Source: an uncultured Rhodospirillaceae bacterium (GTDB lineage: Bacteria; Pseudomonadota; Alphaproteobacteria; MPNO01; UBA830). Taken from it: DNA of 64,000 nucleotides. The stretch spans positions 5,879 to 69,878 of the forward strand of contig CAYPNT010000005.1 in NCBI GenBank assembly GCA_964412235.1, written 5' to 3'. This document shows, in pieces, positions 3,759-59,686 of the stretch. How positions within the stretch are numbered: position 1 is the stretch's first letter; each line of letters begins with the position of its first letter. The notes under the pieces were generated by a model. That model ran no database searches and had not been told where the DNA came from. It saw nothing but the letters and a program-made list of their open reading frames with translations. The translations under genes and the position numbers were made by a program.

Positions 3759-4874
3759 CTAGCCGGTTTGATGCAGGGGCGTTTTACGCACACCGGCTTG
3801 TTCGAGTCGGGGAAGCACTTCATCTCGGAAGTACGGGAAGTGTTCAATGTAATTTACGAAGCCCATAGCGAAAGCATCGACACCTTGATTGTGTATATTC
3901 AGTAAAAGGTTTGCGACATCGTCAGGATCTCCAACTATCGGATAGGCGCCGTTTCCCCCGGCGGCTCTCTGATTGAGATTCGCGATCAGTTTAGGGGACA
4001 AATTATCAAAGTGCCCTCGGGCAATACGGCCGGTTATTAAATTTTGTGCCGCTTCTTTATCGGCCATCTCGACGGCGTAATAATCGTGATATTCTACTGC
4101 CTCTTTTCTGGTTGATCGACAAACAACATAGCAATTTGTAAAGACACCTATATCGCGCCCATAGCTTTTAGCGGTCAATTTAAGTTCGCCAATATCTGAT
4201 CCGATATTTTCTACCTCGGATCTAATTCCTGTGAACATCATATCGGTATTACGAGCTGCAAAGTCCCGCCCTCGCTCGGAACTCCCAGCACTCACAATTA
4301 GGGGTCGGTTAGTTGAATAGGGCTTTGGTTCTGCGAGAACATTTTGTACGGAATAAAATTCGCCCTCATAGTCGAAGGGTTCCGGCTCCGACCAGGCTCG
4401 GGTTATTATTTCGACCCATTCTTGGCCCTGGTCGTACCGGCGATCATGCTCGTTCAAACTTATCCCGGCCATAGCAAATTCTTTTGGGTTCCATCCGCAC
4501 ACGATGTTGAGACCAAAACGACCCCGTCCGATAAGATCGGCCGTTACCATTTGTTTTGCGGCTACTACTGGATTAAACAGCGCAACATGTACTGTTCCAA
4601 AGGCCATTATTTTTTCGGTTGAGGCCAATATTCCCGCCGCCCAGCTTAAGGTTTCGAGGACGCCACCATTGTGATCCGTTTCTCCGCCGTAACCCCTCCA
4701 TCTCCCAAGTGGCAACAGAAAGTCGAGGCCGGCGTCATCGGCAATCTGTGCTGCTTTTAAATTTTCATCCCATGTTCCATTCCAACGTTCGGGCACTAAC
4801 GTTGCAGCGAGACCACCAGAACAATTAAGGCCAAAAAACCCCAATTTAAGTTTGTTTTGGTCATAAGGGCGCAA
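3759..4874 (-). CDS. LLM-class (luciferase-like) flavin-dependent oxidoreductase
   Basis: 371 aa. The N-terminal KLGFFGLNCSGG and the overall pattern are typical of luciferase-like monooxygenases. It lies 7 nt downstream of the 2OG oxygenase gene on the same strand. Confidence 0.7.
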   Translation of the reverse strand: MRPYDQNKLKLGFFGLNCSGGLAATLVPERWNGTWDENLKAAQIADDAGLDFLLPLGRWRGYGGETDHNGGVLETLSWAAGILASTEKIMAFGTVHVALFNPVVAAKQMVTADLIGRGRFGLNIVCGWNPKEFAMAGISLNEHDRRYDQGQEWVEIITRAWSEPEPFDYEGEFYSVQNVLAEPKPYSTNRPLIVSAGSSERGRDFAARNTDMMFTGIRSEVENIGSDIGELKLTAKSYGRDIGVFTNCYVVCRSTRKEAVEYHDYYAVEMADKEAAQNLITGRIARGHFDNLSPKLIANLNQRAAGGNGAYPIVGDPDDVANLLLNIHNQGVDAFAMGFVNYIEHFPYFRDEVLPRLEQAGVRKTPLHQTG

Positions 4875-8043: not shown

Positions 8044-8871
8044 GTGACGCAAACTAGCACAATAAAAGATAACACGATTGAAGGTGTGTTGACGTTTGCT
8101 GTGGATAATGGCGAAAAAATTGTCAACGAAACAATGGCCGAGGGCGACATGAGCCGTCGCCGTACCGGCGAAGTTGAGAAAAGGGCCATGAAAATACGAA
8201 ATGGCCGCACCCTTCGGCATACTTTTGATATAGAGGCCCAAGGGTTTGAATTTTTAGATCATTACACGGGAATGATCGATTTTTTTGATACCGAAGAGTT
8301 GAAATCTGTCTATTACAAAGAGATCGAGGCCCTCGTACAACAACGGACTGGTGCTGCACGAGTGCATGTCTTTGATCATACACTGAGGTCGGGTGATGGG
8401 GCAACACGAAACGAGAGATTGCTGAGAGAACCTGTTGCCCGGGTGCACAATGATTATACAGACTGGTCCGGGCCTAATAGAGTACGTGATTTGCTTCCGG
8501 ATGAGTCAGAAGATTTGCTTTGTCGAAGGTTCGCAATTGTTCAGGTGTGGCGTGCGATCGGCAGTCCAATTGAAGCAGACCCTCTGGCAATATGTGATGC
8601 GCGAACGCTAGTTAAACACGACCTTTTGGTGTCGGAACGTCGCTATCCAAACCGTATCGGACAGACCTATCAGGTTGCATACAACCCCGATCAAGATTGG
8701 TACTACTTCCCTAAGATGACGCGTGATGAAGCTTTGATTTTCAAGGTTTTTGACTCTGCGATGGACGGCCGCGCTCGATTTACGGCGCATTCGGCCTTTT
8801 CGGATCCTCACAGCCCAGAAAATGCACTGCCGCGAGAAAGCATTGAGATGCGTACTTTTGCATTCTTTTGA
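8044..8871 (+). CDS. CmcJ/NvfI-family oxidoreductase-like protein
   Basis: GTG start preceded by GAGGAG. The blocks RVHNDYT, FAIVQVWR, PLAICDARTL, WYYFPKMTRDEALIFK and RESIEMRTFAFF match my memory of this family. No search was run. Confidence 0.55.
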   Translation: MTQTSTIKDNTIEGVLTFAVDNGEKIVNETMAEGDMSRRRTGEVEKRAMKIRNGRTLRHTFDIEAQGFEFLDHYTGMIDFFDTEELKSVYYKEIEALVQQRTGAARVHVFDHTLRSGDGATRNERLLREPVARVHNDYTDWSGPNRVRDLLPDESEDLLCRRFAIVQVWRAIGSPIEADPLAICDARTLVKHDLLVSERRYPNRIGQTYQVAYNPDQDWYYFPKMTRDEALIFKVFDSAMDGRARFTAHSAFSDPHSPENALPRESIEMRTFAFF

Positions 8872-9158
8872 ACTAGGGATATGGTTTTCAACAGAGCATC
8901 TCCGGATTGCTACTGAAAACATTGACCACCTCCGGGTGCTGGACGGTGATGAGTATTGTCTTTAGTTCGGCTTATTTGAGGGCCCCACAGGTGCGACAGT
9001 TCAACCAGGGCACCCAATTACCCCCTACTAGGGGCCGACAAATAGTTTTTCCAGAGGGGGCAGGGTGGTCGAGACCGATATTTCCCGCTGGCTTGTATAA
9101 CTTTGCCTTGTGCGCCGCCGACGCATATAAAACCCCTTGTATAAATGGAGTGTTACCG

Positions 9159-10826
9159 ATGGATGGCATTGCCGGGCAAAGGTCCTATCGTGATCTGCAA
9201 GAGCACATAGCGGAACTAGAAAAACGCGATTTGCTCCACGTTATCGATCATCCTGTCAACAAGGATACTGAAATGTCCGCGTTAGTTCGTTGGCAATTTC
9301 GAGGTGGCTTGCGAGAAGAAGATCGAAAGGCCTTTCTCTTTACAAATGTCACCGACTCCCAGGGACGCAAATATGATATTCCCGTGGTCATTGGAGCGCT
9401 AGCCGCCAATCAGGATATCTATGCGACCGGCATGGATGCGGCTGTTGAAGAGATTGCCGCTAAATGGCAAGCCGCAATTTCCAAACCTATTGCTCCCAAA
9501 TTGCTCAATGAGGCACCGTGTCAAGACGTTGTTATTGAAGGAAATGACTTGTTGAAGGAAGATGGTGGCCTCGTCCGATTGCCTATACCGCTCTCTACGC
9601 CAGGGTTTGATTCCTCTCCCACATTAGCCGCTACAAACGTGATAACCCGCAATCCAGATACTGGCACTCAAAATATGGGTACCTATCGTGCAGGTCTCAA
9701 ATCATCTAACCGCCTTGTCGTGCGCATGGCGACCCGAGTGGGCGGGGCGGAGGGTTACATGCATTGGCAAACGCACAAGTCTCGCGGAGAAAAATTGCCG
9801 TGTGCCATAGTGGTTGGGTGTCCGCCATATGTCGCATTCATGGGTCCGCAAAAACTCCCTGTCGGTGTTGAAGAATTGCACGTCGCGGGTGGCCTGGCTG
9901 GACAAGCCATCAACGTGGTGCGTGCTCGAACCGTCGACTTAGTGGTACCCGCTGAAGCAGAGCTCGTAATAGAAGGCCTCGTTGATACAGAAATGCTCGA
10001 GCCCGAAGGTCCATTTGGTGAAAGCCATGGCCATGTTGCGTTGGAAGAGTTGAATTTGCCTATGCATGTAACGGCCATTACGCACCGGAAGAAAGCGGTA
10101 ATTCCCTCCTACATTTCGCAAGTTGCGCCATCAGAAAGTTCCGTAATCAAACGCGTCGCATATGAACCGTTATTTCTCGCCCATTTGCGAGATCATTTGG
10201 GGATAAAGGGCATACGAAAAGTTCAATTACATGAGCCTCTTACGGGATTACTTCGTGTTACAATTATTTCTGTTGATCCGGAGACGCCGAGGACCGAGGT
10301 GTGGCGTGCGTTATACGGCGCTGCTAGCTTCAAAGGCGATTGCGGAAAAATTACCATCGCCGTTAATGAAGATATCGACGCCGACAATGCCGACGCTGTT
10401 TTGTGGGCGATGGCATACCGCCTCAACCCTGCTGAGGATGTTGAGGTTTTGCCGCATCGCGGGCAGGGTCACGGACCTAAGCGTGAGACATATGGTGAAG
10501 AGGATTCCACCCTTTTAATTGATGCTACGATGAAAGCGCCTATGCCGCCCCTGGCACTGCCTACAAAGCCCTATATGGAGGCTGGGAAGGAGCTCTGGGA
10601 AAAACTTGGACTTCCCACGCTTCGTCCCGAGTCTCCGTGGCACGGATATTCTCTTGGCGATTGGTCAAAATCATGGACAGAGGCGGCCGAACGCGCAACT
10701 GCGGGTGACTGGCCGGAGAACGGCCGTCGTACGTTGCAGAGACAGGTTCCCGCAGATGTTAAACCGGAGACATCCGTGCGCGAGGTTGAAGACGGATGGA
10801 AAGATGAGCTGGAATGGAAAAAATAG
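9159..10826 (+). CDS. UbiD-family (prFMN-dependent) decarboxylase, paralogue 1
   Basis: The ORF is open from 8907, but ATG 9159 has GGAG 8 nt upstream and aligns with the start of the paralogue at 53728. It has the UbiD signature LEPEGPFGESHGH and conserved blocks (RWQFRGG, VVGCPP). It carries about 60 extra C-terminal residues that the paralogue shares. Confidence 0.8.
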   Translation: MDGIAGQRSYRDLQEHIAELEKRDLLHVIDHPVNKDTEMSALVRWQFRGGLREEDRKAFLFTNVTDSQGRKYDIPVVIGALAANQDIYATGMDAAVEEIAAKWQAAISKPIAPKLLNEAPCQDVVIEGNDLLKEDGGLVRLPIPLSTPGFDSSPTLAATNVITRNPDTGTQNMGTYRAGLKSSNRLVVRMATRVGGAEGYMHWQTHKSRGEKLPCAIVVGCPPYVAFMGPQKLPVGVEELHVAGGLAGQAINVVRARTVDLVVPAEAELVIEGLVDTEMLEPEGPFGESHGHVALEELNLPMHVTAITHRKKAVIPSYISQVAPSESSVIKRVAYEPLFLAHLRDHLGIKGIRKVQLHEPLTGLLRVTIISVDPETPRTEVWRALYGAASFKGDCGKITIAVNEDIDADNADAVLWAMAYRLNPAEDVEVLPHRGQGHGPKRETYGEEDSTLLIDATMKAPMPPLALPTKPYMEAGKELWEKLGLPTLRPESPWHGYSLGDWSKSWTEAAERATAGDWPENGRRTLQRQVPADVKPETSVREVEDGWKDELEWKK

Positions 10827-10856
10827 GGTAGTCGCGAAAACATAAGGGATTCCAAC

Positions 10857-11342
10857 ATGAATGGAGCAGAAAGACGAGACTTTGTCCGGAAACACCGGAC
10901 GGCGGTGTTCGGTTATCCACGAAAGGAACACGGTCCCTCTATGTCTTGTGTATATTATGTGATGGATGGCGAAGACATTCTCGTCTCATCCATGTTGGGC
11001 CGAGCTAAGCCCAAAGCTGTTACTCGGGACCCTCGTGTTTCACTATGTATTCTCGATGAGAAATGGCCATTGACGTACATTACAGTATACGGAAATGCTA
11101 CTGTGGAAGAGCGAGGCGGAGACGATTTACTTATTGCTGTGTGCGAACTCATGGCTGAGCAGGTCATGCCGCACGATGAACGAGAAAAGCTTAGAAAACT
11201 TGCGATTGAGGAAGAACGGTGCGTTATCCGAATAGTCCCCGAAACGACCTTTGAAACACCCCCTCGACACGTTCACACCCCCGATGATGTTGACACGTTA
11301 TCCCATTGGCTCGGCAATACTTTGCCATGGAATTCGGCATGA
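10857..11342 (+). CDS. Pyridoxamine 5'-phosphate oxidase (PPOX)-like FMN-binding split-barrel protein
   Basis: 161 aa. Its pattern (FVRKHRTAVFGYPRKEHGPSMSCVYYVMDGEDILVSS ... VSLCILDE) resembles PPOX-class small flavoproteins. The stop overlaps the next start (ATGA). Confidence 0.55.
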   Translation: MNGAERRDFVRKHRTAVFGYPRKEHGPSMSCVYYVMDGEDILVSSMLGRAKPKAVTRDPRVSLCILDEKWPLTYITVYGNATVEERGGDDLLIAVCELMAEQVMPHDEREKLRKLAIEEERCVIRIVPETTFETPPRHVHTPDDVDTLSHWLGNTLPWNSA

Positions 11343-11863
11343 GTGGCCCTGTTGCGCGTGAAGATTACTCTAAACGAATTTTTAATAAGCTGGCGGATGC
11401 AGGCGTCACTCTGTTCTCTTACGTTCCTGATTTCGGGAATGCTGAGATCATTAATTTGGCCGAGGAAGATAACAGAACGACTGTGGCTCTGCTTTCCAGC
11501 GAGCAAGAGGGCGTAGCGCTCAGCGCAGGTGCCGATTTAGTGAATGGGCGCGCTGTTTTACTTATGCAATCCTCCGGGGTCGGTAATTGTGTCAACATGC
11601 TGTCACTTGTTAAGGCCGGGCGTTTTCCCCTCCTCATGATTGTGACAATGCGCGGAGACTATGGGGAGCAGAACCCATGGCAATATCCGATGGGCCAAGC
11701 AGTTGAACCAGTTTTGGAAGCAATGGGAGTGCAATGCCTATGGGTGCGAAGGGTCGCCGATTTAGACGACGCGCTTGATGCAGCCATTTCCGCTGTTTTC
11801 ACAGCCGGACAGGGGGTGGCTTTGATTCTGTCACAAAAATTAATTGGCGCGAAGGTCTTTTAA
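11339..11863 (+). CDS. Sulfopyruvate decarboxylase alpha-subunit-like protein (split TPP enzyme, PYR domain)
   Basis: The start ATG overlaps the upstream stop (ATGA). The blocks FSYVPD, SEQEGVALSAGADL, LLMQSSGVGN and PLLMIVTMRGDYGEQNPWQ match the ComD-type N-terminal TPP domain. Confidence 0.65.
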   Translation: MSGPVAREDYSKRIFNKLADAGVTLFSYVPDFGNAEIINLAEEDNRTTVALLSSEQEGVALSAGADLVNGRAVLLMQSSGVGNCVNMLSLVKAGRFPLLMIVTMRGDYGEQNPWQYPMGQAVEPVLEAMGVQCLWVRRVADLDDALDAAISAVFTAGQGVALILSQKLIGAKVF

Positions 11864-11864
11864 A

Positions 11865-12479
11865 ATGGTTGGTCCTACGTCCGTTGGAATGATCGACCGC
11901 ACGAGTATTTTGCCTCAATTATTTGCAGACCCTAATGACTATTTGATTATTACGGGGCTTGCGGGTGCCGCCAAGGATGCAGCCTCTTGGACTGGTGATG
12001 CCGATAACTTATTAACATTTGGGGGTGCGATGGGGGGCGCTCTTCCGACCTCACTCGGGACTGCTTTATGTGCTCCTGAAAGGAACGTTTTGGTGATCAC
12101 GGGTGACGCAGAACTCTTAATGAGTGCGGGCGCGCTGGCCACCACGGCATCGGCTCGCCCAGCCAACTTATCAATTGTGTGTATTGATAATGCCCAACAT
12201 GGCGAAACAGGTGGACAACCTAGTCATACGGCTATGCAGACTAACTTGTCATTGTTGGCCGAGGGAGCAGGAATACCATCGGTTATGACGTTATCGGCTC
12301 CTGAAAAGTTAGAAGAGGCGCGTCGGTTTTTGAAGGAAAAGCCGGGTCCTCGCTTCCTGTGTGTTCGCGTGAGGCCCGGCCCCCCATCGGATTATAAACG
12401 GGATTGGGATTTGGTTCATTGTCGTGTGAGATTTAAAGCAGCACTTATTTCAACTGAAGACAGACAAACAAAAAGATAA
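11865..12479 (+). CDS. Sulfopyruvate decarboxylase beta-subunit-like protein (TPP-binding PP domain)
   Basis: ATG lies 1 nt after the upstream stop; TTG 11844 is an alternative. The TPP motif is GDAELLMSAGALATTASARPANLSIVCIDN. Confidence 0.65.
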   Translation: MVGPTSVGMIDRTSILPQLFADPNDYLIITGLAGAAKDAASWTGDADNLLTFGGAMGGALPTSLGTALCAPERNVLVITGDAELLMSAGALATTASARPANLSIVCIDNAQHGETGGQPSHTAMQTNLSLLAEGAGIPSVMTLSAPEKLEEARRFLKEKPGPRFLCVRVRPGPPSDYKRDWDLVHCRVRFKAALISTEDRQTKR

Positions 12480-12559
12480 CTTGCGGCGATTGTCGAACAT
12501 TTGCGCGTCTCTCCCTCGCCATGTCTATCCGCGAGTTGGGTTTTCAAGTGTGTCAGGCT

Positions 12560-13612
12560 CTAACCCTCGTTCGGCATATTCATCCCAAGCGATTGTGCCA
12601 CGGCTTCAAGCCGGTTCCAGGTTCCTGCGGGCACGGGTATGCCGGACCGCTCTCGTCCTGCAAAAACCTTATCGCCTCGTTCACCAGGAACGAGGATTTC
12701 GTCGACCCCGGAGGCCCGAGGCAGCGTTTTTACTGCGCTCGCGAGTCGGTCGACTTCGCGCGCGTAATCAGAAATATCGCCGAATTTTGAGAGGTCCACC
12801 GCTATTACAAGGCCATTTTGCATGTGCAGGTCGCCGTTCGGTGCGCCTTCCAGGAACGGTGCTATGAGCGGATTTCCAACGGTTAGGCTTGCCAGGCATT
12901 CGAACATTAGGGAGAGGCCACCTCCCTTGTGTCCTCCAAGGGCGGTGGGTATTGCCGCTTTCGACGGATCCGTTGTCGGATCGCCCTTGCTATCTATTGC
13001 CCAACCTTCACCTAGGGGACTATTCGTATCGCGAGCAAGTTGGATTTTTCCCATAGATTGTGTTGCGGTCGCCATATCGAGCATTAAGGGCGCGTGTTTT
13101 GAGCCAGGTACCGCGATCGCGATTGGGCTTGTCGCGATACCCGCGGATCGCGCGCCTGGATAGGCCATATTGGGACGAGATACATTGATCACGATACCCG
13201 CCATTCCTTCTGCGGTGATTTCCAAAGCAAAATATCCGACGGCACCCATATGTGTGGCTTTTCGGACACAGCATAGGCCTATTCCTGCCTTCGATGCTTT
13301 TTCTAAAGCGATTTCCGTGCCGCGAGAAAGCGCTACCTGTCCAAAAGCGTGGTCCGCATCTAAGACGGCGGCCGCGAGTAGATCCGTAGTTATATGCATT
13401 TGCGGCGTGGGGTTGTTCACACCACTATCCACGCGCGCAATATAGCCGGGGATACGCAATACCCCATGTGAATCGACACCCCGCATGTTTGCCCATACTA
13501 AGACTTTACTTACCAATGCAGCGTCGTGCCGCGGTAATCCTTTTTTCGCGAACACCTCTACGACGAAGGCGGTTAGCCGCTGTTGTGAAATCAATCGTGT
13601 TTCTGGATCCAT
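12560..13612 (-). CDS. Ldh_2-family (malate/L-lactate/sulfolactate dehydrogenase type 2) oxidoreductase
   Basis: 350 aa. GVDSHGVLRIPGY, the CVRKATHMGAVGYF-type block and GGHKGGGLSLMFE are characteristic of the Ldh_2 family. Confidence 0.7.
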   Translation of the reverse strand: MDPETRLISQQRLTAFVVEVFAKKGLPRHDAALVSKVLVWANMRGVDSHGVLRIPGYIARVDSGVNNPTPQMHITTDLLAAAVLDADHAFGQVALSRGTEIALEKASKAGIGLCCVRKATHMGAVGYFALEITAEGMAGIVINVSRPNMAYPGARSAGIATSPIAIAVPGSKHAPLMLDMATATQSMGKIQLARDTNSPLGEGWAIDSKGDPTTDPSKAAIPTALGGHKGGGLSLMFECLASLTVGNPLIAPFLEGAPNGDLHMQNGLVIAVDLSKFGDISDYAREVDRLASAVKTLPRASGVDEILVPGERGDKVFAGRERSGIPVPAGTWNRLEAVAQSLGMNMPNEG

Positions 13613-13706: not shown

Positions 13707-14600
13707 TTGGAACAAGCAGTTTCCTTTAAGTCTGGCAAAAATGGCGAGCTGAATATTTCAGGGGTCATACACATTCCCGATGATTTGGGACAGGGAGAAA
13801 AACGCCCAGCCGTTCTTGTATTACATGGATTTGGAAGCCGAAAGGACGCCGAAAATGTGAAGGGCCCCACGAATATGTTTATGGGATGGGGGTATGTTGT
13901 TCTGAGATTTGACATGCGCGGTTGTGGCGAAAGCGATGGAATTTTTGGACACTTGCTGTGCCTTGACCAAGTGGAGGACACACAATCGGCAATCACATTT
14001 CTGCAATCTCGGCCAGAAGTAGATCCCGATAAAATAGCAGTCGTTGGATCAAGCTTTGGTGCTGCCGTCGCAGTCTATACAGCTGGAGTTGACGATCGAG
14101 TTGCTGCGGTGATCTCCTCGGGGGGTTGGGGAAATGGGGAACGCAAATTTCGTGGTCAGCATTCTACCGCCGAGGCGTGGGCGGCGTTCACAAAAATGCT
14201 GGAGGAGGGGAAAAAACATCGCGAGGAAACGGGAGAGCCTATGATGGTCGATCGTTTTGCAATAGTGCCAATACCCCAGCATTTGAGGAAGAATATGCCA
14301 TCGGGTTCCGTCGAAAAATTCACAGCCGACACCGCTCTGGGTATGATGGAATTTAATGCTGAAAATGTGATTGCGAATATCGCCCCCCGACCCGTACTCC
14401 TGCTGCATAGCTCTGTAGATTCTGTGACACCCACCGAGCAATCGGTTGAAATGTTTAAGCGTGCCGGACAGCCCACGGATCTGCATCTAACCGCGGATAC
14501 CGACCATTTTATGATGGCTGAATCAAATACGCGAGTGATCAAAATTATTGAAGATTGGCTTGAAAGATACTTTTCTGTTACCGGGGACAATAATGCTTGA
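13707..14600 (+). CDS. Alpha/beta hydrolase
   Basis: TTG start 6 nt after GGAGG. The nucleophile elbow is VVGSSFGA (GxSxG). The C-terminal DHF His is plausible for the catalytic triad. Confidence 0.65.
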   Translation: MEQAVSFKSGKNGELNISGVIHIPDDLGQGEKRPAVLVLHGFGSRKDAENVKGPTNMFMGWGYVVLRFDMRGCGESDGIFGHLLCLDQVEDTQSAITFLQSRPEVDPDKIAVVGSSFGAAVAVYTAGVDDRVAAVISSGGWGNGERKFRGQHSTAEAWAAFTKMLEEGKKHREETGEPMMVDRFAIVPIPQHLRKNMPSGSVEKFTADTALGMMEFNAENVIANIAPRPVLLLHSSVDSVTPTEQSVEMFKRAGQPTDLHLTADTDHFMMAESNTRVIKIIEDWLERYFSVTGDNNA

Positions 14601-15795
14601 CGGTATACACTCATCGAATGACACCAAAGTCACGGAAATCGCCCTCGTAGAAAAGGCGCGGGCGATGGCGCCTATCCTGGAAGAACGCGCCCGTAAAGCG
14701 GAAAAAGAACGTCGAATTTCAACAGAAACGGATCGCGAATTTCGAGAAGCAGGATTTTATGCTGCTCTTCAGCCACGCCGGTATGGCGGACTTGAGCTGG
14801 ATTACGGTGCACAAACGCAATTTGCAATTGAGCTCAGTCGAGTTTGCGCTTCAAGCGGCTGGGTCGCGGGTATTCTAGCATGTCACGGATGGATAGCCGG
14901 AATGTTCCCGGATGAAGCTCAATCGGAAATTTGGGGACGGGATCCCACTGCAAAAATCGCGACGTCGTTTTTGCCGATAAATGCAAAAGTCGAGGGCTCA
15001 GAGGCCGGACTTCGTGTCAGTGGTCGTTGGCGCTTTTCCAGTGGCGTCGATCATTGTGGTTGGGCAATTTTGCTCGCAATGGCCCAGGGTGATGGCGACC
15101 TCCCTCCAAACCCTGTATTTGTTATTGTTAATCTGCAGTCCTGCTTGGTTGAAGACACATGGCATAGTACAGGCCTCGCCGCGACGGGTAGCAACGACAT
15201 CGTGGTTGATGACCTTAAAGTGCCACCGCACCGTGTTATGCCTATTGTTAATCTCAGGGGTGAAGATACGCCTGGCTATTTGGCAAGCGGAAACTATCTC
15301 TACAAACTACCCTTATTCGCTGTATTTCCATTCAACATTATCGGGCCAGCCATAGGCGCAGCCCACGGAGCCCTCGATCGGATCGTGTCCGAGCTTTCAA
15401 AAAGACAGACAGTCACCGGGACCGATCTTTCACGGGTCGCAACCGTGCACCAAAGAATTGGGAAGGCCACGGCACTGTTAGACGCGGCTTATGCACTTCT
15501 AGGCCGGATACGTTCGGATATTATCACTAAAGGCCATGATGGTCTTGAATTTGAGATGACGCATCGCGCACGCTATCGGCTAGGCTTGGGACACATTGCG
15601 CAGAACTGCTGCCAGGCGGTTGATGAATTGCTTCCCTTGACAGGCGGCCGCGGTCTGGAAACATCGCATCCTGTTCAGAGGGCCTGGCGAGACGTTCACG
15701 CTGTCGCACAACATATTGGCCTCGTCTGGGATCTACAGACCACGCTTTTTGGCAATATTTTGATGGGTCACGGTAGTCCAGACCCAAAACTATAA
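14593..15795 (+). CDS. Acyl-CoA-dehydrogenase-fold flavin-dependent monooxygenase (HsaA / HpaH-C2-like) or acyl-CoA dehydrogenase family protein
   Basis: ATG 14593 overlaps the upstream stop by 8 nt. About 400 aa with ACAD-like architecture. Its context, between a hydrolase and an extradiol dioxygenase, favours a phenol-hydroxylating oxygenase component. Confidence 0.6.
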   Translation: MLDGIHSSNDTKVTEIALVEKARAMAPILEERARKAEKERRISTETDREFREAGFYAALQPRRYGGLELDYGAQTQFAIELSRVCASSGWVAGILACHGWIAGMFPDEAQSEIWGRDPTAKIATSFLPINAKVEGSEAGLRVSGRWRFSSGVDHCGWAILLAMAQGDGDLPPNPVFVIVNLQSCLVEDTWHSTGLAATGSNDIVVDDLKVPPHRVMPIVNLRGEDTPGYLASGNYLYKLPLFAVFPFNIIGPAIGAAHGALDRIVSELSKRQTVTGTDLSRVATVHQRIGKATALLDAAYALLGRIRSDIITKGHDGLEFEMTHRARYRLGLGHIAQNCCQAVDELLPLTGGRGLETSHPVQRAWRDVHAVAQHIGLVWDLQTTLFGNILMGHGSPDPKL

Positions 15796-15796
15796 A

Positions 15797-16651
15797 CTAG
15801 TTGCCAATACCAATCTCGAATTCACCGATTTGATCACAGTGAAAATGCAGTTTGTCTCCTGCTTTCACCTCGCTGACGCCCTCTGGGGAGCCAGTGTATA
15901 ATACGTCGCCCGGATACAACGTGTAATATTCGGAGGCATATTCAATTAGTTCCCGAATGCTCAACACTTGATCTGAGGTGTTCGCGTTTTGCTTGACCTC
16001 TCCGTTGACCGACCCCCAAAAAGAAACGTTGTCCGGATCCGGAATTTCATCGGCTGTAACAAGCCAAGGTCCGAGGACGGCATATCCATCGCAAGATTTT
16101 CGAGCACTCCTATCCTCTGGTCCGCGAACTGTCATATCTAATCCCAAGGTATATCCCGCGATTACTTCCAGAGCGTCGGCTTGGCGGACCCGGCTACACT
16201 CTTTTCCTATAATAATTACAAACTCGAATTCGTGATCGTTGCGGCGTTCGGGAAAGCGGATGGGTATTAAATCTGATGGGCCGATCAGAGCGGTATTTGA
16301 TTTTAGAAAAATACCGGCCTCTTTAATTTTGGTGGTTCGCTCTATATGGCGGATCCCTGGATCTGCTTGAGCTTCATCAATATGGGCTTTGTAGTTTACG
16401 GGAGCTGCCATAATTTTACCCGGCCGTGCAATCGGTGGAAGGAGATTGACAGCGTTCAATGGTATTGGTTCCGAAGTGTCCGCCATTTCTCGTAACGGTT
16501 CCTGCCAGTCCGTCAAACCTGATATGACGGCGTCAGACTTTGAAACGTACGGATGAGCCGCACGCATTTCTTCTTGGGCTCGCGTTACATCATGGATGCC
16601 GTTGCCGCGCACAATACCCAGTTGGTCGTCATTGTACCTGCAGAGTTTCAT
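15797..16651 (-). CDS. Fumarylacetoacetate hydrolase (FAH) family protein
   Basis: 284 aa. HEFEFVIIIGK and the C-terminal GDVLYTGSPEGV are typical FAH-family blocks. Confidence 0.75.
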   Translation of the reverse strand: MKLCRYNDDQLGIVRGNGIHDVTRAQEEMRAAHPYVSKSDAVISGLTDWQEPLREMADTSEPIPLNAVNLLPPIARPGKIMAAPVNYKAHIDEAQADPGIRHIERTTKIKEAGIFLKSNTALIGPSDLIPIRFPERRNDHEFEFVIIIGKECSRVRQADALEVIAGYTLGLDMTVRGPEDRSARKSCDGYAVLGPWLVTADEIPDPDNVSFWGSVNGEVKQNANTSDQVLSIRELIEYASEYYTLYPGDVLYTGSPEGVSEVKAGDKLHFHCDQIGEFEIGIGN

Positions 16652-16690
16652 TTTTGCCTCCTTGAGCGATCAAAGTATTTATCTTTCCCG

Positions 16691-16717
16691 TTGTCACGCA
16701 AAATCATACCATGACAA
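16691..16717. repeat. Perfect inverted repeat TTGTCA-N15-TGACAA in a divergent promoter region (candidate operator)
   Basis: Read directly from the sequence. It lies between the FAH gene (-) and the extradiol dioxygenase gene (+). Its function is inferred only. Confidence 0.3.
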
Positions 16718-16750
16718 AGGTAGATGGACGCATTTGGAGGGATTTAAAAA

Positions 16751-17626
16751 ATGGCTGATCCTATTGTTAAGGGACTGCATAGTGCTGAACTGGCTGTACC
16801 AGAATTGCGCGCGGCGACAAAATTTTATGTCGATTGCTGGGGCCTGACGGTTGCCGCGGAAGAAAACGGGTCAGTGTATTTGCGTGGCACCGGCGCTGAA
16901 CATCACGCCTTAGTCTTAAGGGAAGGTCGCGAGAAGAAATTGCTCGCCGTAAATTTACTCGCCGAGGATAAAACTTCCGTCGATGGGCTTTACGAGAGAG
17001 CAAAAAGTCTCGGCGCCTCCGTCGAAGCACCTAATGAGTTGGTCGGTCCAGCCGGAGGGTATGGTTTTGTTTTTTGTGATTTGCATGATCGCAAATATTA
17101 CGTTTCTGCGGGTTTGAAAACGCATGAGAGCATGCCGTATTCAAAGGATACTCCCATTAAGCTCAGTCATGTGGTGCTAAATTCTCCCGAACGGGAAGCC
17201 CAAAGTGAACAATTTATTGATTTTCTGGGTTTCAAATTGTCAGACAGAACCGGTTATATGGACTTTATACGCTGTAGCAGCGATCATCATGCAATTGCTT
17301 ATACAGCGATAAACCGTCCCACAGTAAATCACTGTGCATTTGAAGTGCCTAGTCACGATGCGCTAATGCACGCGTCTGGTCGTATGAAAAGAGCAGGATA
17401 CCCTGTTGAATGGGGTGTCGGCCGGCATGGACCCGGCGACAACATTTTTGCATATTTTATTGATCCTAACGAGTACGTAATAGAGTATACCGCAGAGGTG
17501 CAGCAGGTTGATGACAGCTATAAAGTTGGCATGCCCGAGGACTGGGTTCGACCAGCAGATTTCAACGGTGATGGGTGGGGGTTCGTCGAACCAGCCTCCC
17601 AGCGGATGCATGCGGCGACACAATAA
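16751..17626 (+). CDS. Two-domain VOC-family extradiol ring-cleavage dioxygenase
   Basis: 291 aa. The pattern of conserved His/Glu (HHALVL, SHVVLNS, DHHAIAY, NHCAFEV, IEYTAE) resembles catechol 2,3-dioxygenase-type enzymes. Confidence 0.7.
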   Translation: MADPIVKGLHSAELAVPELRAATKFYVDCWGLTVAAEENGSVYLRGTGAEHHALVLREGREKKLLAVNLLAEDKTSVDGLYERAKSLGASVEAPNELVGPAGGYGFVFCDLHDRKYYVSAGLKTHESMPYSKDTPIKLSHVVLNSPEREAQSEQFIDFLGFKLSDRTGYMDFIRCSSDHHAIAYTAINRPTVNHCAFEVPSHDALMHASGRMKRAGYPVEWGVGRHGPGDNIFAYFIDPNEYVIEYTAEVQQVDDSYKVGMPEDWVRPADFNGDGWGFVEPASQRMHAATQ

Positions 17627-17673
17627 TGGCGGGGTAGGTCAGCTTTATCTTACTTTACCTAAGGTCCCAATGA

Positions 17674-19071
17674 ATGGCTTCTGTACCCGGAAAAATAACG
17701 GCCGCAATTACTGAATTTACCTCTACGGTTGGCTTTGATGATATTCCCCCTCGTGTCATCGAAAGGGCTAAGGTTCATATACTGGACACTCTTGGTCTGT
17801 GTTTGGCGGGATCGCTTACCGAGGCTGCCACTGTTGCTCGAGACATTTTGCCAAAGACCGCTCCTGCAAACGTGGGCTCAACGATATTCGGTACGCGCCT
17901 TCGTGCCGCACCGCGTTTTGCTGCTTTGGCAAATGCCGTCGCGGCACACGCCCATAATTTTGATGATACAACCCCACAAGTGCAAACCGATCGAACTGGA
18001 GGAATCCACGCAAGTGGCGCAATATTGCCGGTGGGGCTAGCGCTAGGAGAAGAATACCGCGCTTCCGGTCAAGAAATTATCACCTCATACCTAACCGGCG
18101 TCGAGGTTGCGTCTCGTCTTAACCACACAATTGCGCCTCGGCATTATGCCGATGGTTTTCACGCTACAGCTACACTGAATGGTTTTGGTGCGGCTTGCGC
18201 CGCTGCTCGCCTTATGAAACTGGCTCCAAAGGAGATTTCCGCGGCGGTTTCTATCGCAGCAAGCCAATCTGGCGGCGTTCGTCGCAACTTTGGGTCGAGT
18301 GCAGAAATTTTTCACTCTGGTTGGGCTGCTGAAAATGGTGTTGTTGCCGCTGATCTCGCTAGGCGGGGAATCTCCGGTGCAAACGACGCCTTGGAGGGAC
18401 CAAGCGGATTTTTCGAGGCGGCAGGCGGGGGATTTGATGCAAACGAGTTTATCGGTAGGCTCGGAAAACCCTGGATATTCGAACACCCAGGGGTTTGGAT
18501 AAAACAATATCCGAATGGTGCTTTGACTCACCCCGCCGTAGACAGCCTCCTTGAACTTATTGAACAACATAGTGTTCACAGAAACGAAATCACCCGGATT
18601 GTTGTAAAAACAAATGAACGGATGTGGAATACGCTGCAACATCACGAACCAAAAACCGGGATGCAGGCAAAATTCTCGATGGAATTTATACTGGGCGCTA
18701 TAATATTGAACGGCTCGGTGGGCTTGGATACGTTCACGGATTCTATGGTGGCCGATCGCGAGGTTCGTCACGCGATGACGAAGGTTGATTATGCACCGTT
18801 TGCAAAGCCTCCAACGGATTTTAGTAATGTGACAACTCTTTTAGAGGTCCACCTCCGTGACGGGCGTCGTTTATCGTCCCGAGCTGACCACGCGCTTGGT
18901 AGCACAGAAGCACCCCTATCCTATGAACAAGTAGCGGATAAATTTTTTCGCTGCGCAACTTTCGTTGGCCACGCGAAGGAAAAAATAAAGCTACTGGTTA
19001 GACAGGTTGCGGATTTAGAGAATGCGGAAAGTCCCGAAAATTTGGTCAACGCATTGATTTCCAATAACTAA
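17674..19071 (+). CDS. MmgE/PrpD family protein (2-methylcitrate dehydratase-like)
   Basis: 465 aa. The N-terminal FDDIPPRVIERAKVHILDTLG, the block HAHNFDD and FHATATLNGFGAA are typical of MmgE/PrpD. Confidence 0.75.
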   Translation: MASVPGKITAAITEFTSTVGFDDIPPRVIERAKVHILDTLGLCLAGSLTEAATVARDILPKTAPANVGSTIFGTRLRAAPRFAALANAVAAHAHNFDDTTPQVQTDRTGGIHASGAILPVGLALGEEYRASGQEIITSYLTGVEVASRLNHTIAPRHYADGFHATATLNGFGAACAAARLMKLAPKEISAAVSIAASQSGGVRRNFGSSAEIFHSGWAAENGVVAADLARRGISGANDALEGPSGFFEAAGGGFDANEFIGRLGKPWIFEHPGVWIKQYPNGALTHPAVDSLLELIEQHSVHRNEITRIVVKTNERMWNTLQHHEPKTGMQAKFSMEFILGAIILNGSVGLDTFTDSMVADREVRHAMTKVDYAPFAKPPTDFSNVTTLLEVHLRDGRRLSSRADHALGSTEAPLSYEQVADKFFRCATFVGHAKEKIKLLVRQVADLENAESPENLVNALISNN

Positions 19072-28132: not shown

Positions 28133-28180
28133 TAAGACAATACTCGCGAAGGTGCATAGAATTTGGTACTTCATAGTGCT

Positions 28181-29200
28181 ATGCCAATACTTAGTGTGCT
28201 TGATCAGTCCCCAATTCGTTCAGGTTGTACACCTGCCGAAGCTTTGCAAGAAACCCTCGAACTTGCTCAAGTTTGCGATCGCCTTGGATATTACAGGTAT
28301 TGGCTGGCGGAACACCACTCAACAGGTGGGCTTGCAGGGTCTGCGCCAGAGGTGCTTATTGGCCAGGTTGCGTCTTGCACGGATAGTCTTCGTGTTGGCT
28401 CTGGCGGTGTGATGTTGAGTCATTATTCATCATTGAAGGTGGCTGAGAATTTTCGCATGCTTGAGGCTTTATATCCTGGCCGAATAGATCTCGGTATCGG
28501 ACGTGCCCCAGGGTCTGACGGCTTGACAGCAGGCGCATTAGCTCACGGTCCTGGTGCTCTTGGTATCGAACATTTTCCAGCGCAAATCCGCGATGTTCGG
28601 GCGTGGCTAACGGGCGAAATGCCGAGTGATCATCCGTTCAAACAGGTCACTGCAATGCCGACGGGTGAGACAATTCCTGAGATTTGGTTGCTTGGATCGA
28701 GTGACCAGTCTGCTGCTTACGCTGCATACTTTGGAATGGCGTTTTCGTTTGCGCATTTTATTAATTCGAATGGTGGTCCCATGGTTATGGAGGCTTATAG
28801 ACGTCACTTTGAAGCCACCGAGCAACTGCCTAAACCTCGGGGTTCTATCGGCATATTCGTAATATGTGCAGAGACCCAGGACGAAGCTATAGAACTTCGT
28901 TGGAGCCGTGATTTATGGACATTGCGGCTTCGAACCGGCAAAACGGGCCCTGTTCCAACTGTAGAGGAAGCTAAGAGCTATCCCTACACGGATCAAGAAT
29001 GGGCGATCGTCCAAAGTAACCGATCGCGGACCATCGCAGGTGATCCCGAGCAATGTGCTACAGAAATTCGGAAATTGGGTGAGGTCTATGAGGTTGAAGA
29101 GTTTGTTATTGTTACGATTTGTGATGATTTTAACGCGCGCCGGCATTCATATGAGTTACTTGCCGAAGCTTTCGCTCTTGGTCCTGCAAAGGCGTCATAG
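28181..29200 (+). CDS. LLM-class flavin-dependent oxidoreductase (YhbW/MsnO8-like)
   Basis: ATG 28181 (MPILSVLDQSPI) is the typical N-terminus of this subgroup; TTG 28163 is an alternative. It also has RYWLAEHH and the GSGGVMLSHYS blocks. Confidence 0.7.
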   Translation: MPILSVLDQSPIRSGCTPAEALQETLELAQVCDRLGYYRYWLAEHHSTGGLAGSAPEVLIGQVASCTDSLRVGSGGVMLSHYSSLKVAENFRMLEALYPGRIDLGIGRAPGSDGLTAGALAHGPGALGIEHFPAQIRDVRAWLTGEMPSDHPFKQVTAMPTGETIPEIWLLGSSDQSAAYAAYFGMAFSFAHFINSNGGPMVMEAYRRHFEATEQLPKPRGSIGIFVICAETQDEAIELRWSRDLWTLRLRTGKTGPVPTVEEAKSYPYTDQEWAIVQSNRSRTIAGDPEQCATEIRKLGEVYEVEEFVIVTICDDFNARRHSYELLAEAFALGPAKAS

Positions 29201-35377: not shown

Positions 35378-35907
35378 AAATGACTTTTCCTCGTGGCGTT
35401 TATATAGGTGTACTCGCGATGGTGGTTATTGTAGCGGCCTCTAACGTTTTGGTGCAGTATCCAATAAACGATTGGCTCACTTGGGGTGCAATCACTTATC
35501 CAGCGGCATTTTTGATCACCGATCTGACAAATCGGTCTCTTGGACCCGCCCGCGCTCGACAAGTGGTCTACGCGGGTTTTGCTGTTGCTGTTCTACTTTC
35601 CGTTGGTCTTTCTACTTCACGAATCGCTGTTGCATCTGGAACTGCTTTTTTGATAGCGCAACTAATAGACGTCGGTGTTTTCAATCATTTGCGGGCCAAA
35701 TCTGTTTGGTGGACCGCGCCGTTAGTTTCTTCTTTCGCCGCGTCCGCCGTCGATACGATCCTCTTTTTTTCAATAGCATTTGCCAGTACAGGTCTCCCCT
35801 GGGTAACCTGGGCTGCAGGTGATTTTGGCGCTAAAATGTGCGTAGGGTTAGCGATGCTGGTACCTTTCAGGGCCTTAATGTACAAAACGCGACCACAGGG
35901 AGCATAA
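35374..35907 (+). CDS. yhhQ: Queuosine-precursor transporter (YhhQ/VUT family)
   Basis: GTG 35374 overlaps the arsC stop; ATG 35380 is an alternative. It is hydrophobic, with YPINDWLTWGAITYPAAFLITDL and SSFAASAVDTILFF blocks as in YhhQ. Confidence 0.7.
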   Translation: MKMTFPRGVYIGVLAMVVIVAASNVLVQYPINDWLTWGAITYPAAFLITDLTNRSLGPARARQVVYAGFAVAVLLSVGLSTSRIAVASGTAFLIAQLIDVGVFNHLRAKSVWWTAPLVSSFAASAVDTILFFSIAFASTGLPWVTWAAGDFGAKMCVGLAMLVPFRALMYKTRPQGA

Positions 35908-35909
35908 AC

Positions 35910-38279: not shown

Positions 38280-39091
38280 AATCTGCAAAATTTGAGCACC
38301 GGCAAACGGAATCCCTGAACGAAGCACTCAGTTTGCTCGGTAGTGCGGATGGTGAAACGCGCGTTTTGGGTGGCGGGCAATCCCTAGGTCCAATGATGAA
38401 CTTGCGTCTTGCACAGCCTGATCAGCTGATTGACCTGAGCTCGGTAGATGGACTTGACGAAATATTGGTTGATGGTGACCACCTTCATATTGGTGCGCGT
38501 GTTACGCATGCTCGTATAGAAGATGGAGGGGTCCCAGGTGTAACTGGTGAATATATGAAATTTGTGGCGGCCGGAATTTCATATCGGTCGGTTCGTAATC
38601 GTGGTACAATTGGAGGTTCCGTGGCCCACGCAGATCCCGCGGCGGATTGGCCTTCGGCACTTCTTGCTCTTGGAGGTGACGTGCTCGTCGCCGGACAAGA
38701 CGGTGAGAGACGAGTGTCGTTAGACGGATTTCAAATTGGGCCCTTTGCTACTGGTTTGGGTTACGATGAAATTCTTATTGGGTTTGTTCTTCCCGTTCTT
38801 GGAAGAAACGCGTCTACGGGATACTACAAGGTGAATAGGAAGCCTGGTGAGTTTGCCGATGCAATCGGGGCGGTGGTTGTAGGTGAAAATGCCCGGGTAA
38901 TTTGCGGGGCGACAAAGTCTGCACCATTTAGAGTGTCGGCTGTAGAGGAGAAGCTTTCATCTGGAGGGACGGAATTATCGGTAGGGGAGGCGCGCGAAAT
39001 GATAACTGCACATGATCCCGGGTTTGATGATTATGAATTGCAGATTCACGGTGTAGCGCTAAGTCGAGCCGTGGGGAGGGCCTTCGCATGA
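38276..39091 (+). CDS. Molybdenum hydroxylase FAD-binding medium subunit (CoxM-like)
   Basis: It has ATGA overlaps on both sides. It has VLGGGQSLGPMMNLR and TIGGSVAHADPAAD. Confidence 0.8.
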   Translation: MKSAKFEHRQTESLNEALSLLGSADGETRVLGGGQSLGPMMNLRLAQPDQLIDLSSVDGLDEILVDGDHLHIGARVTHARIEDGGVPGVTGEYMKFVAAGISYRSVRNRGTIGGSVAHADPAADWPSALLALGGDVLVAGQDGERRVSLDGFQIGPFATGLGYDEILIGFVLPVLGRNASTGYYKVNRKPGEFADAIGAVVVGENARVICGATKSAPFRVSAVEEKLSSGGTELSVGEAREMITAHDPGFDDYELQIHGVALSRAVGRAFA

Positions 39092-39555: not shown

Positions 39556-39573
39556 ACAATCAACTCACAGGTA

Positions 39574-59647: not shown

Positions 59648-59686
59648 TGTTTGTATATTAAAATTAAGCGTTGGGAGAAATTGGTC

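What the first reader, a model, noticed from the sequence alone, without database searches (positions are those of the whole stretch)
8044..13612. Unusual cluster: CmcJ-like oxidoreductase, UbiD decarboxylase, PPOX-like flavoprotein, split TPP decarboxylase, convergent Ldh_2 dehydrogenase
Five same-strand genes are tightly packed, with an ATGA overlap between the PPOX-like and ComD-like genes and a 1-nt gap between the ComD-like and ComE-like genes. They combine two mechanistically different decarboxylases, one prFMN-dependent (UbiD) and one TPP-dependent. A small FMN-binding split-barrel protein sits between them. UbiD enzymes need prFMN made by UbiX, and no ubiX is in the window. The PPOX-like protein is a candidate flavin-handling partner, which is speculation. 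I know of no described pathway with this gene combination.
Basis: partly seen in the sequence, partly recalled or inferred. Interest (0 to 1): 0.6.

Follow-up and report, generated by a model that had tools for sequence, protein, structure and literature searches.

The report
Mosaic UbiD decarboxylase catabolic operon
An uncultured marine alphaproteobacterium has a real four-gene operon (a prenylated-flavin decarboxylase, a small flavin-binding protein and a two-piece thiamine decarboxylase) inside an aromatic-compound breakdown island; it recurs in about a dozen related species, but it was assembled from movable modules, the neighbouring CmcJ-like gene is not part of it, and its substrate is unknown.

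Summary
The "five tightly packed genes" is not.

- **Operon start.** UbiD starts at 9159. The 287 nt before it hold a dead ChrR anti-sigma remnant and UbiD's own conserved promoter-like motif. CmcJ lies next to UbiD only because rpoE-chrR was deleted.
- **Operon content.** The unit is UbiD-PPOX-TPPα-TPPβ. It occurs in at least 13 species-level genomes of one marine clade. Ancestrally a LigI-like lactonase sat between PPOX and TPPα; the window has lost it.
- **Ldh_2.** It belongs to the older core: hydrolase, HsaA-like monooxygenase, FAH, extradiol dioxygenase, PrpD and an ABC transporter.
- **UbiD.** It sits in an uncharacterised long-tailed branch, about 30% identical to HmfF. More distant members have ubiX next door, so a missing ubiX in this window is unremarkable.
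- **Independent modules.** Close PPOX and TPPαβ homologues occur elsewhere without UbiD.

Best reading: an aromatic-acid catabolic island in which UbiD feeds a hydroxylase and meta-cleavage route. PPOX probably handles flavin and TPPαβ probably decarboxylates a 2-oxo acid. The substrate is unresolved. Interest is moderate.

The parts
8044..8871 (+). CmcJ/NvfI-family (Fe/2OG-type) oxidoreductase. It is a separate unit, not part of the operon.
   Evidence: NF041278 at 298.5 bits. The PDB hits are a 2OG-dependent dioxygenase (7eus) and NvfI, E 1e-29 and 2e-25. Its position relative to UbiD varies from 0.1 to 7.7 kb in relatives. dS against L001 is 1.3, compared with 0.07 for UbiD.
8885..9025 (+). 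Degraded 3' remnant of a ChrR-type anti-sigma gene. It is the scar of a roughly 1.35-kb deletion that removed rpoE-chrR.
   Evidence: DNA alignment to L001. tblastn of L001 ChrR residues 168-214 gives 49% identity with an in-frame stop, E 2e-12. The intact L081 homologue scores 194 bits on TIGR02451 (ChrR family). The junction is contiguous in contigs of three DNA runs.
9084..9158 (+). Conserved promoter-like motif (TTGCCT-N17-TATAAA) and GGAG ribosome-binding site ahead of UbiD.
   Evidence: The pattern TTT.C.TT...ATAA...GGAG is kept in 19 of 20 aligned upstream regions. The consensus scanner did not call it. No transcript start was mapped.
9159..10826 (+). UbiD-family (prFMN-dependent) decarboxylase, 555 aa, of the long-tailed branch. 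First gene of the operon.
   Evidence: Pfam UbiD_N, UbiD and UbiD_C. The best PDB match is HmfF 6h6x, E 8e-35, about 30% identity. N172, R177, E283 and E288 align to the HmfF/Fdc1 catalytic and metal positions.
10857..11342 (+). PNPOx-like split-barrel protein, 161 aa. It is presumed to bind a flavin or deazaflavin.
   Evidence: PF01243 at 38 bits. TIGR03618 at 74.9 bits, just under the cutoff of 79.05. The AF2 model has pLDDT 92. The top Foldseek hits are Rv2991, Rv1155 and MSMEG_3380. The family is 63-98% identical across hundreds of clusters.
11339..11863 (+). ThDP enzyme, PYR-domain (alpha) subunit, ComD/Ppd-like. Its start overlaps the PPOX stop (ATGA).
   Evidence: PF02776. TIGR03845 at 107.7 bits, below the cutoff of 148. 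The overlap was read directly.
11865..12479 (+). ThDP enzyme, PP-domain (beta) subunit, ComE/Ppd-like. It starts 1 nt after the alpha subunit.
   Evidence: PF02775. TIGR03846 at 98.5 bits, below the cutoff of 221.5. The best PDB match is a putative phosphonopyruvate decarboxylase beta subunit, 9iz3, E 1e-9. A GD...DN metal/ThDP motif is seen by eye in the translation.
12560..13612 (-). Ldh_2-family 2-hydroxyacid/imine oxidoreductase, convergent on the operon and divergent from the hydrolase gene.
   Evidence: PF02615 at 322 bits. NF040650 at 207 bits, below the cutoff of 500. It is kept next to UbiD in L015, L016, L017 and L083, which lack TPPαβ.
13707..19071 (.). Conserved downstream core: alpha/beta hydrolase, HsaA/C2-HpaH-like ACAD-fold monooxygenase, FAH (HpaG-like), two-domain extradiol dioxygenase (HpaD-like) and an MmgE/PrpD protein.
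   Evidence: Pfam and NCBIfam matches. Synteny in relatives.

Best explanation
The locus is one piece of a mosaic catabolic island for aromatic or heteroaromatic acids in an uncultured marine alphaproteobacterium (Rhodospirillaceae-like).

**Transcription unit.** The unit is UbiD-PPOX-TPPα-TPPβ, read from a promoter just upstream of UbiD. It is translationally coupled through a 30-nt gap, a 4-nt overlap and a 1-nt gap.

**UbiD (inferred role).** It removes CO2 from an imported aromatic, heteroaromatic or acrylic acid. The product passes to the adjacent conserved core:
- the HsaA/C2-HpaH-like monooxygenase hydroxylates it;
- the HpaD-like extradiol dioxygenase opens the ring;
- the hydrolase, FAH, PrpD-like and Ldh_2 enzymes process the fragments.

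**PPOX-like protein (inferred role).** It is a flavin-handling helper. Slightly more likely, it supplies reduced flavin to the reductase-less two-component monooxygenases. Less likely, it matures prFMN for UbiD.

**Split ThDP enzyme (inferred role).** It decarboxylates a 2-oxo acid made in the pathway to an aldehyde. That oxo acid would ancestrally have been the product of the LigI-like lactonase now lost from the window, or else of Ldh_2.

**What is shown and what is inferred.** Shown: gene identities, operon geometry, conservation, the order in which the modules were gained and lost, and the fact that CmcJ's adjacency is accidental. Inferred: every substrate and every enzyme's position in the pathway.
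For: - **Geometry.** Read directly.
- **Promoter.** A promoter-like motif is conserved in 19 of 20 aligned upstream regions.
- **Conservation.** UbiD-PPOX-(lactonase)-TPPα-TPPβ-Ldh_2(-)-hydrolase-monooxygenase-FAH(-)-dioxygenase recurs in one-genome-per-species loci.
- **Order of gains and losses (tree).** PPOX occurs only in a 22-row clade and TPPαβ only in a 16-row subclade (support 97). Nested secondary losses are seen in L013, L015 and L016. The sister clade has UbiD directly followed by an ACAD-fold monooxygenase.
- **Lost lactonase.** Remnants lie in the PPOX-TPPα spacer of L004, L009, L010 and L011. The intact gene best matches 4-sulfomuconolactone hydrolase, a LigI-type enzyme.
- **UbiD.** Catalytic residues are intact against HmfF. 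UbiX is adjacent in 56-60% relatives.
- **Selection.** dN/dS is 0.08-0.3 against L001, and against other relatives dN is low while dS is saturated.
- **PPOX neighbours elsewhere.** Luciferase-like or ACAD-fold monooxygenases lie next to PPOX in 4 of 5 PPOX-centred loci.
- **PPOX and HsaA.** PPOX and the downstream HsaA-like gene tend to be present or absent together (11/1/1/4).
- **TPPαβ context.** In L087 the homologue sits next to an aldehyde:ferredoxin oxidoreductase, an alcohol dehydrogenase and HpaB.
- **RNA.** One metatranscriptome contig spans the PPOX/TPPα junction.
Against: - No substrate is identified, and no enzyme here has a characterised orthologue.
- The PPOX-HsaA association rests on only 2-4 independent contrasts and is not significant once phylogeny is considered.
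- PNPOx/FDOR-type proteins are not established NAD(P)H:flavin reductases.
- No aldehyde dehydrogenase, aldolase or regulator is found beside the operon.
- The hydrolase is not a typical meta-cleavage hydrolase. Its best NCBIfam match is a lactonase.
- RNA evidence is four small contigs from one run. They could include DNA carry-over or a close relative.
- The island is decaying in places (rpoE-chrR and the lactonase are lost), so the window's pathway may be incomplete.
Confidence: 0.55

Rival explanations
1. The PPOX-like protein is a dedicated prFMN helper for this UbiD. It would act as an oxidative maturase or chaperone, analogous to PhdC, YclD or LpdD. This would explain its fixed position directly downstream of UbiD, the slot that UbiX occupies in some more distant relatives (for example L065).
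For: - It lies directly downstream of UbiD, 26-48 nt away, in about 15 species-level loci.
- PhdC and YclD are small flavin-binding beta-barrel proteins encoded beside UbiD genes. They convert the prFMN radical to the active iminium form and raise UbiD and HmfF activity (PMC13040415).
- In L065, L073 and L078 the gene directly after the UbiD homologue is UbiX.
Against: - There is no sequence or profile match to PhdC (9SRG/9SRJ), even at E up to 10.
- The top 50 Foldseek neighbours are PNPOx/FDOR-type proteins, not HpaC-like reductases or PhdC.
- PhdC's C-terminal ExW motif is absent at that position.
- Five PPOX-centred loci at 66-73% identity have no UbiD within 7 kb.
- UbiD orthologues persist without an adjacent PPOX in L013, L015-L017 and L083. 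In L083's genome the PPOX homologue lies about 1 Mb away.
Confidence: 0.2
2. Ldh_2 plus TPPαβ form a C3-sulfonate route: sulfolactate to sulfopyruvate to sulfoacetaldehyde, as with ComC and ComDE. On this reading the route merely sits next to an unrelated UbiD.
For: - The best NCBIfam names are sulfopyruvate decarboxylase alpha and beta and L-sulfolactate dehydrogenase.
- The best PDB hit for Ldh_2 is sulfolactate dehydrogenase 2x06.
- The lost lactonase best matches 4-sulfomuconolactone hydrolase.
- Sulfonates are abundant in seawater (general knowledge).
Against: - All scores are far below the equivalog cutoffs: 108 against 148, 98 against 221, and 207 against 500.
- Ldh_2 predates TPPαβ at this site and stays there without it.
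- The Pfam scans of the window's ORFs found no Xsc-type enzyme and no TauE-type sulfite exporter. SuyAB and CuyA families were not specifically sought.
- TPPαβ homologues occur in varied contexts that are not sulfonate-related.
Confidence: 0.07
3. One reading: all five same-strand genes, including CmcJ, plus Ldh_2 form one dedicated, previously undescribed pathway acting on a single substrate.
For: - The genes are co-directional and lie close together in the window, L001 and L006.
- CmcJ lies within 1-8 kb of UbiD in most relatives.
Against: - The CmcJ-UbiD adjacency is a deletion scar.
- UbiD has its own conserved promoter-like motif.
- CmcJ shows a different divergence history: dS 1.3 against 0.07.
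- In relatives, 1.6-7.7 kb of unrelated genes (sigma and anti-sigma factors, fasciclin, transposases) lie between the two.
Confidence: 0.05

Closest known systems
HmfF/HmfG, 2,5-furandicarboxylate decarboxylase and its UbiX partner (PDB 6H6V/6H6X; hmf clusters)
   Same: It is a UbiD-fold, prFMN-type decarboxylase and the best solved-structure match (E 8e-35). The catalytic Glu-Arg-Glu and Asn positions align. It has a catabolic role at the start of a ring-degradation route.
   Different: Identity is only about 30%. This enzyme has a roughly 90-aa C-terminal extension. There are no hmfABCDE or hmfH neighbours and no adjacent UbiX. The tree places HmfF outside the 100-row long-tail family.
PhdABC (phenazine-1-carboxylate decarboxylase, UbiX and the PhdC prFMN maturase) and YclD beside VdcCD (PMC13040415)
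   Same: A small flavin-binding beta-barrel protein is encoded directly beside a UbiD gene.
   Different: PhdC is an HpaC-like flavin-reductase-fold protein and is restricted to Actinomycetota. The protein here is PNPOx/FDOR-type, shows no detectable similarity to PhdC and lacks the C-terminal ExW motif. Its close homologues often sit beside monooxygenases without any UbiD.
ComDE sulfopyruvate decarboxylase and split phosphonopyruvate decarboxylase (for example PDB 9IZ3)
   Same: It is a two-subunit ThDP enzyme made of separate PYR and PP domains. These are the best NCBIfam and PDB matches.
   Different: Scores fall below every equivalog cutoff. No coenzyme M, sulfonate or phosphonate genes are nearby. 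Homologues at about 60% identity sit in aromatic or organic-acid catabolic contexts.
Homoprotocatechuate (hpa) and HsaACD-type meta-cleavage modules
   Same: The downstream core has an ACAD-fold hydroxylase (HsaA 278 bits; C2-HpaH 182 bits), an HpaD-like extradiol dioxygenase, an HpaG-like FAH and a hydrolase.
   Different: All scores are below equivalog cutoffs. There is no reductase, dehydrogenase or aldolase. Extra UbiD, Ldh_2, PrpD-like and ThDP enzymes are present.

Membership tests
UbiD family (prFMN-dependent decarboxylases) | Three-domain UbiD architecture | tested here: met
   PF20695, PF01977 and PF20696 are all above their cutoffs.
UbiD family (prFMN-dependent decarboxylases) | Conserved Glu-Arg-Glu network and Asn metal ligand | tested here: met
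   N172, R177, E283 and E288 align with HmfF's N/R and EGPFGE motif.
UbiD family (prFMN-dependent decarboxylases) | A UbiX flavin prenyltransferase present in the genome | not testable with these tools
   There is none in the window or within 10 kb of UbiD in close relatives. It is adjacent to UbiD in 56-60% relatives.
HmfF (2,5-furandicarboxylate decarboxylase) clade | Orthology to characterised HmfF, and hmf pathway neighbours | tested here: not met
   Identity to PtHmfF is about 30%. HmfF falls outside the family in the tree. There are no hmfABCDE-like genes beside it.
ComDE sulfopyruvate decarboxylase | Scores above the equivalog cutoffs TIGR03845 and TIGR03846 | tested here: not met
   107.7 against 147.95, and 98.5 against 221.5.
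Phosphonopyruvate decarboxylase | Score above the TIGR03297 cutoff, and a PEP mutase neighbour | tested here: not met
   63.5 and 84.2 against 312.5. No PEP_mutase family was found among the window ORFs scanned.
ComC L-sulfolactate dehydrogenase | Score above the NF040650 equivalog cutoff | tested here: not met
   206.8 against 500.
PhdC/YclD prFMN maturases | Sequence or fold relation to PhdC (HpaC-like class I reductase fold) | tested here: not met
   There is no hit to 9SRG or 9SRJ by phmmer or by profile at E up to 10. The top 50 Foldseek hits are PNPOx/FDOR-type.
PhdC/YclD prFMN maturases | Conserved Glu47 and the C-terminal Glu136-x-Trp138 motif | tested here: inconclusive
   There is no ExW near the C-terminus. 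An invariant E68-x-W70 lies mid-sequence. Without an alignment to PhdC, equivalence cannot be judged.
PhdC/YclD prFMN maturases | Gene adjacency to a UbiD gene | tested here: inconclusive
   Adjacent in about 15 species of one clade. Not adjacent in 5 of 5 PPOX-centred loci elsewhere.
PPOX-class F420-dependent oxidoreductases (TIGR03618) | Score above the family cutoff, and F420 available in the organism | tested here: inconclusive
   74.9 against a cutoff of 79.05. The nearest structures are F420-binding Rv1155 and MSMEG_3380.
CmcJ/NvfI family oxidoreductases | Score above the NF041278 cutoff | tested here: met
   298.5 against 80. NvfI and a 2OG-dependent dioxygenase are the PDB hits.

The most novel reading that the evidence does not exclude
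The ancestral operon UbiD-PPOX-(LigI-like lactonase)-TPPαβ encodes an undescribed branch of ring-fission metabolism.

- An HmfF-related UbiD decarboxylates a pyrone or furan-type dicarboxylate, for example 2-pyrone-4,6-dicarboxylate.
- The lactonase opens the resulting lactone to a 2-oxo acid.
- The split ThDP enzyme decarboxylates that oxo acid to an aldehyde.
- The conserved 161-aa PNPOx-like protein acts as a new, non-PhdC type of prFMN maturase.
Probability: 0.07. Interest if true: 0.75.

Novelty: new variant of a known kind. Interest (0 to 1): 0.4.

Why it matters
UbiD enzymes are wanted as reversible (de)carboxylation catalysts, and many are hard to activate when expressed in other hosts.

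No member is characterised.
- A highly conserved 161-aa flavoprotein is fixed next to UbiD in one clade. It can be tested cheaply as either a new activation helper or a missing reductase for two-component monooxygenases.
- The split ThDP decarboxylase subfamily is also uncharacterised and recurs in aromatic catabolic loci.
- For marine carbon cycling, the island marks a route for aromatic-acid turnover in abundant uncultured alphaproteobacteria.
- The gene pairing itself is a lineage-specific mosaic, not a new kind of system.

Tried and rejected
- **Riboswitch or leader RNA in the 287-nt gap.** Rfam gave nothing relevant. The gap is a ChrR pseudogene remnant plus a promoter-like motif.
- **Promoter and terminator scan.** It found no more sites than in shuffled sequence and missed the conserved motif.
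- **Co-transcription.** Only one metatranscriptome held the locus, as four small contigs. This is suggestive at most.
- **PhdC membership for PPOX.** Rejected by sequence, profile and fold neighbours.
- **HmfF orthology.** Rejected. The Paraburkholderia UbiD-UbiX-UbiD cluster looked hmf-like but has coxMSL gene order, no CoA ligase was seen among the ORFs scanned, and it is no closer to PtHmfF.
- **Sulfonate reading.** Rejected on cutoffs and context.
- **PPOX-HsaA co-occurrence.** The raw Fisher p is 0.01, but there are too few independent contrasts to count.
- **Plasmid search for cultured carriers of PPOX.** It returned only distant actinobacterial PPOX proteins.
- **DDVA/mhq paper.** Its UbiD is unrelated to this case.

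Full report
**Observation.**
ORF listing and family scans confirm the six genes:
- a CmcJ/NvfI-family protein at 8044-8871 (NF041278, 298 bits);
- a three-domain UbiD;
- a 161-aa PNPOx_N protein at 10857-11342;
- a TPP_enzyme_N protein at 11339-11863 and a TPP_enzyme_C protein at 11865-12479;
- a convergent Ldh_2 at 12560-13612.

The ATGA overlap (11339-11342), the 1-nt gap (11864) and the 30-nt UbiD-PPOX spacer were read directly.

The UbiD ORF opens at 8907, but family matches begin about 90 residues in, and homologues are 544-556 aa. The true start is therefore 9159, which leaves 287 nt after CmcJ.

**CmcJ is not part of the unit.**
- In the nearest relative, L001 (UbiD 98% identical), an ECF sigma factor and a ChrR-family anti-sigma factor lie between CmcJ and UbiD. 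In most relatives they sit directly upstream of UbiD. The L081 homologue scores 194 bits on TIGR02451.
- Aligning the window to L001 shows a deletion of about 1.35 kb. Window 8885-9025 still encodes a degraded ChrR C-terminus: 49% identity over 47 aa with an in-frame stop, E 2e-12.
- The junction is contiguous in contigs of three DNA runs.
- The last roughly 75 nt before UbiD carry TTGCCT-N17-TATAAA and GGAG. This pattern is kept in 19 of 20 aligned upstream regions.
- Against L001, CmcJ has dS 1.3, whereas UbiD, PPOX, TPPα and TPPβ have dS 0.02-0.13. A recombination boundary therefore lies here.

**Conservation.**
One scan of one-genome-per-species contigs returned 80 loci. tblastn synteny and gene tables show the following order in marine Rhodospirillaceae-like MAGs with UbiD at 84% identity or more: UbiD-PPOX-(Amidohydro_2)-TPPα-TPPβ, Ldh_2(-), hydrolase-HsaA-like, FAH(-), extradiol dioxygenase, then PrpD-like and an ABC transporter.

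The UbiD tree places the features as follows:
- PPOX occurs only in a 22-row clade.
- TPPαβ occurs only in a 16-row subclade (support 97).
- Nested losses occur in L013 (PPOX) and in L015 and L016 (both).
- L017 and L083 have UbiD directly beside Ldh_2.
- The sister clade (70-73% identity, including Defluviicoccus) has UbiD followed at once by an ACAD-fold monooxygenase.

The Amidohydro_2 gene best matches 4-sulfomuconolactone hydrolase, a LigI-type lactonase. It is intact in seven loci. Remnants lie in the PPOX-TPPα spacer of L004, L009, L010 and L011. The window and L001 have lost it cleanly. The ancestral operon was therefore UbiD-PPOX-lactonase-TPPα-TPPβ. The surviving genes are under purifying selection.

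**What the parts are.**
- *UbiD.* The best solved match is HmfF (E 8e-35, about 30% identity), and the catalytic Asn, Arg, Glu and Glu positions are conserved. AroY, Fdc1, PhdA, VdcC, HudA, phthaloyl-CoA decarboxylase and AnInD are all more distant. The family has a long C-terminal tail, and the window holds a second paralogue (57% identical) near 53.7-55.4 kb beside a GST.
- *UbiX.* It is absent from the window and from close relatives' flanks. It is directly adjacent to UbiD in 56-60% relatives such as Paraburkholderia, Caballeronia and soil alphaproteobacteria. It also lies in the same cluster, about 3 kb from UbiD, in a Neorhizobium plasmid that carries Mo-hydroxylases and a ThDP enzyme.
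- *PPOX.* The family is strongly conserved (63-98% identity). The AF2 model has pLDDT 92. The nearest structures are Rv2991, Rv1155 and MSMEG_3380.
- *TPPαβ.* It scores below the ComDE and Ppd cutoffs. Homologues at about 60% identity sit without UbiD in three other settings: next to an acyl-CoA synthetase; next to AFOR, ADH and HpaB; and among PrpF, RraA and TctA genes.

**PPOX role.**
PhdC and YclD are small flavin-binding barrel proteins beside UbiD genes that mature prFMN (PMC13040415).

Three results speak against membership in that family:
- no sequence or profile match to PhdC;
- no PhdC-type proteins among the top fold neighbours;
- five PPOX-centred loci at 66-73% identity have no UbiD within 7 kb, and four of the five have a luciferase-like or ACAD-fold monooxygenase one or two genes away.

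Within the clade, PPOX and the downstream HsaA-like gene co-occur (11/1/1/4, Fisher p 0.01). Only 2-4 of these contrasts are phylogenetically independent. I therefore rank "reduced-flavin supplier for two-component monooxygenases" slightly above "prFMN helper". Neither is shown.

**Sulfonate reading.**
It is rejected:
- all equivalog cutoffs are missed by wide margins;
- Ldh_2 is older at this site than TPPαβ;
- no Xsc-type enzyme or TauE-type exporter turned up in the window's Pfam scans.

**Expression.**
One metatranscriptome yielded four small contigs on UbiD and one across the PPOX/TPPα junction. This is weak support for co-transcription.

**Limits.**
I therefore could not search the genome for ubiX, flavin reductases or F420 genes. 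The substrate remains unknown.

**Verdict.**
This is a real, conserved but lineage-specific and mosaic operon inside an aromatic-acid catabolic island. It is a new variant of a known kind, of moderate interest.

Noticed in passing
window 8885-9025: A pseudogene remnant of a ChrR-type anti-sigma factor. The rpoE-chrR pair that precedes UbiD in most relatives has been deleted here. This explains the 'long leader open in the UbiD frame'.
   Followed up: yes
window 53737-55353 and 55354-56094: A second long-tailed UbiD paralogue (57% identical to the first) lies immediately upstream of a GST gene. A GMC oxidoreductase, a TauD-family oxygenase and three EamA transporters are nearby.
   Followed up: partly
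L004:3040-3440, L009:5930-6300, L010:7440-7700, L011:8360-8670: Decayed fragments of a LigI/4-sulfomuconolactone-hydrolase-like Amidohydro_2 gene lie between PPOX and TPPα. The same gene has been lost independently in several lineages.
   Followed up: yes
window 8044-8871 versus 9159-12479, compared with L001: There is a sharp change in divergence: CmcJ has dS 1.3, while the UbiD operon has dS 0.02-0.13. This points to a recombination or transfer boundary at the deletion scar.
   Followed up: partly
L094:6024-8698 (TARA scaffold); L091:5949-7486: PPOX homologues (66-73% identical) overlap the stop codon of a Cupin_2 (ring-cleavage-type) gene. In L094 an ACAD-fold monooxygenase follows. A full-length ThDP enzyme and a Meth_synt_2 gene recur nearby in both loci.
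   Followed up: no
L087:7462-13000: A TPPαβ homologue sits beside an aldehyde:ferredoxin oxidoreductase, a zinc alcohol dehydrogenase and HpaB. This hints at an arylpyruvate to arylacetaldehyde to arylacetate route.
   Followed up: no
window 35838-41925: Two CoxL-type molybdenum hydroxylase large subunits with FAD and 2Fe-2S subunits between them. Rhizobial and Paraburkholderia relatives of the UbiD sit next to such hydroxylases.
   Followed up: no
window 3759-4874, 28163-29200, 42084-43430, 14548-15795, 59651-61171: Five two-component-type flavin monooxygenases lie in 64 kb: three luciferase-like, one ACAD-fold and one HpaB. No canonical Flavin_Reduct partner was found among the ORFs scanned.
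   Followed up: partly
L001:8440-8480 (upstream of rpoE): A TGATCC hexamer lies upstream of the ECF sigma gene. From memory it resembles the -35 element of RpoE(ChrR)-type autoregulated promoters. No such element precedes UbiD.
   Followed up: no
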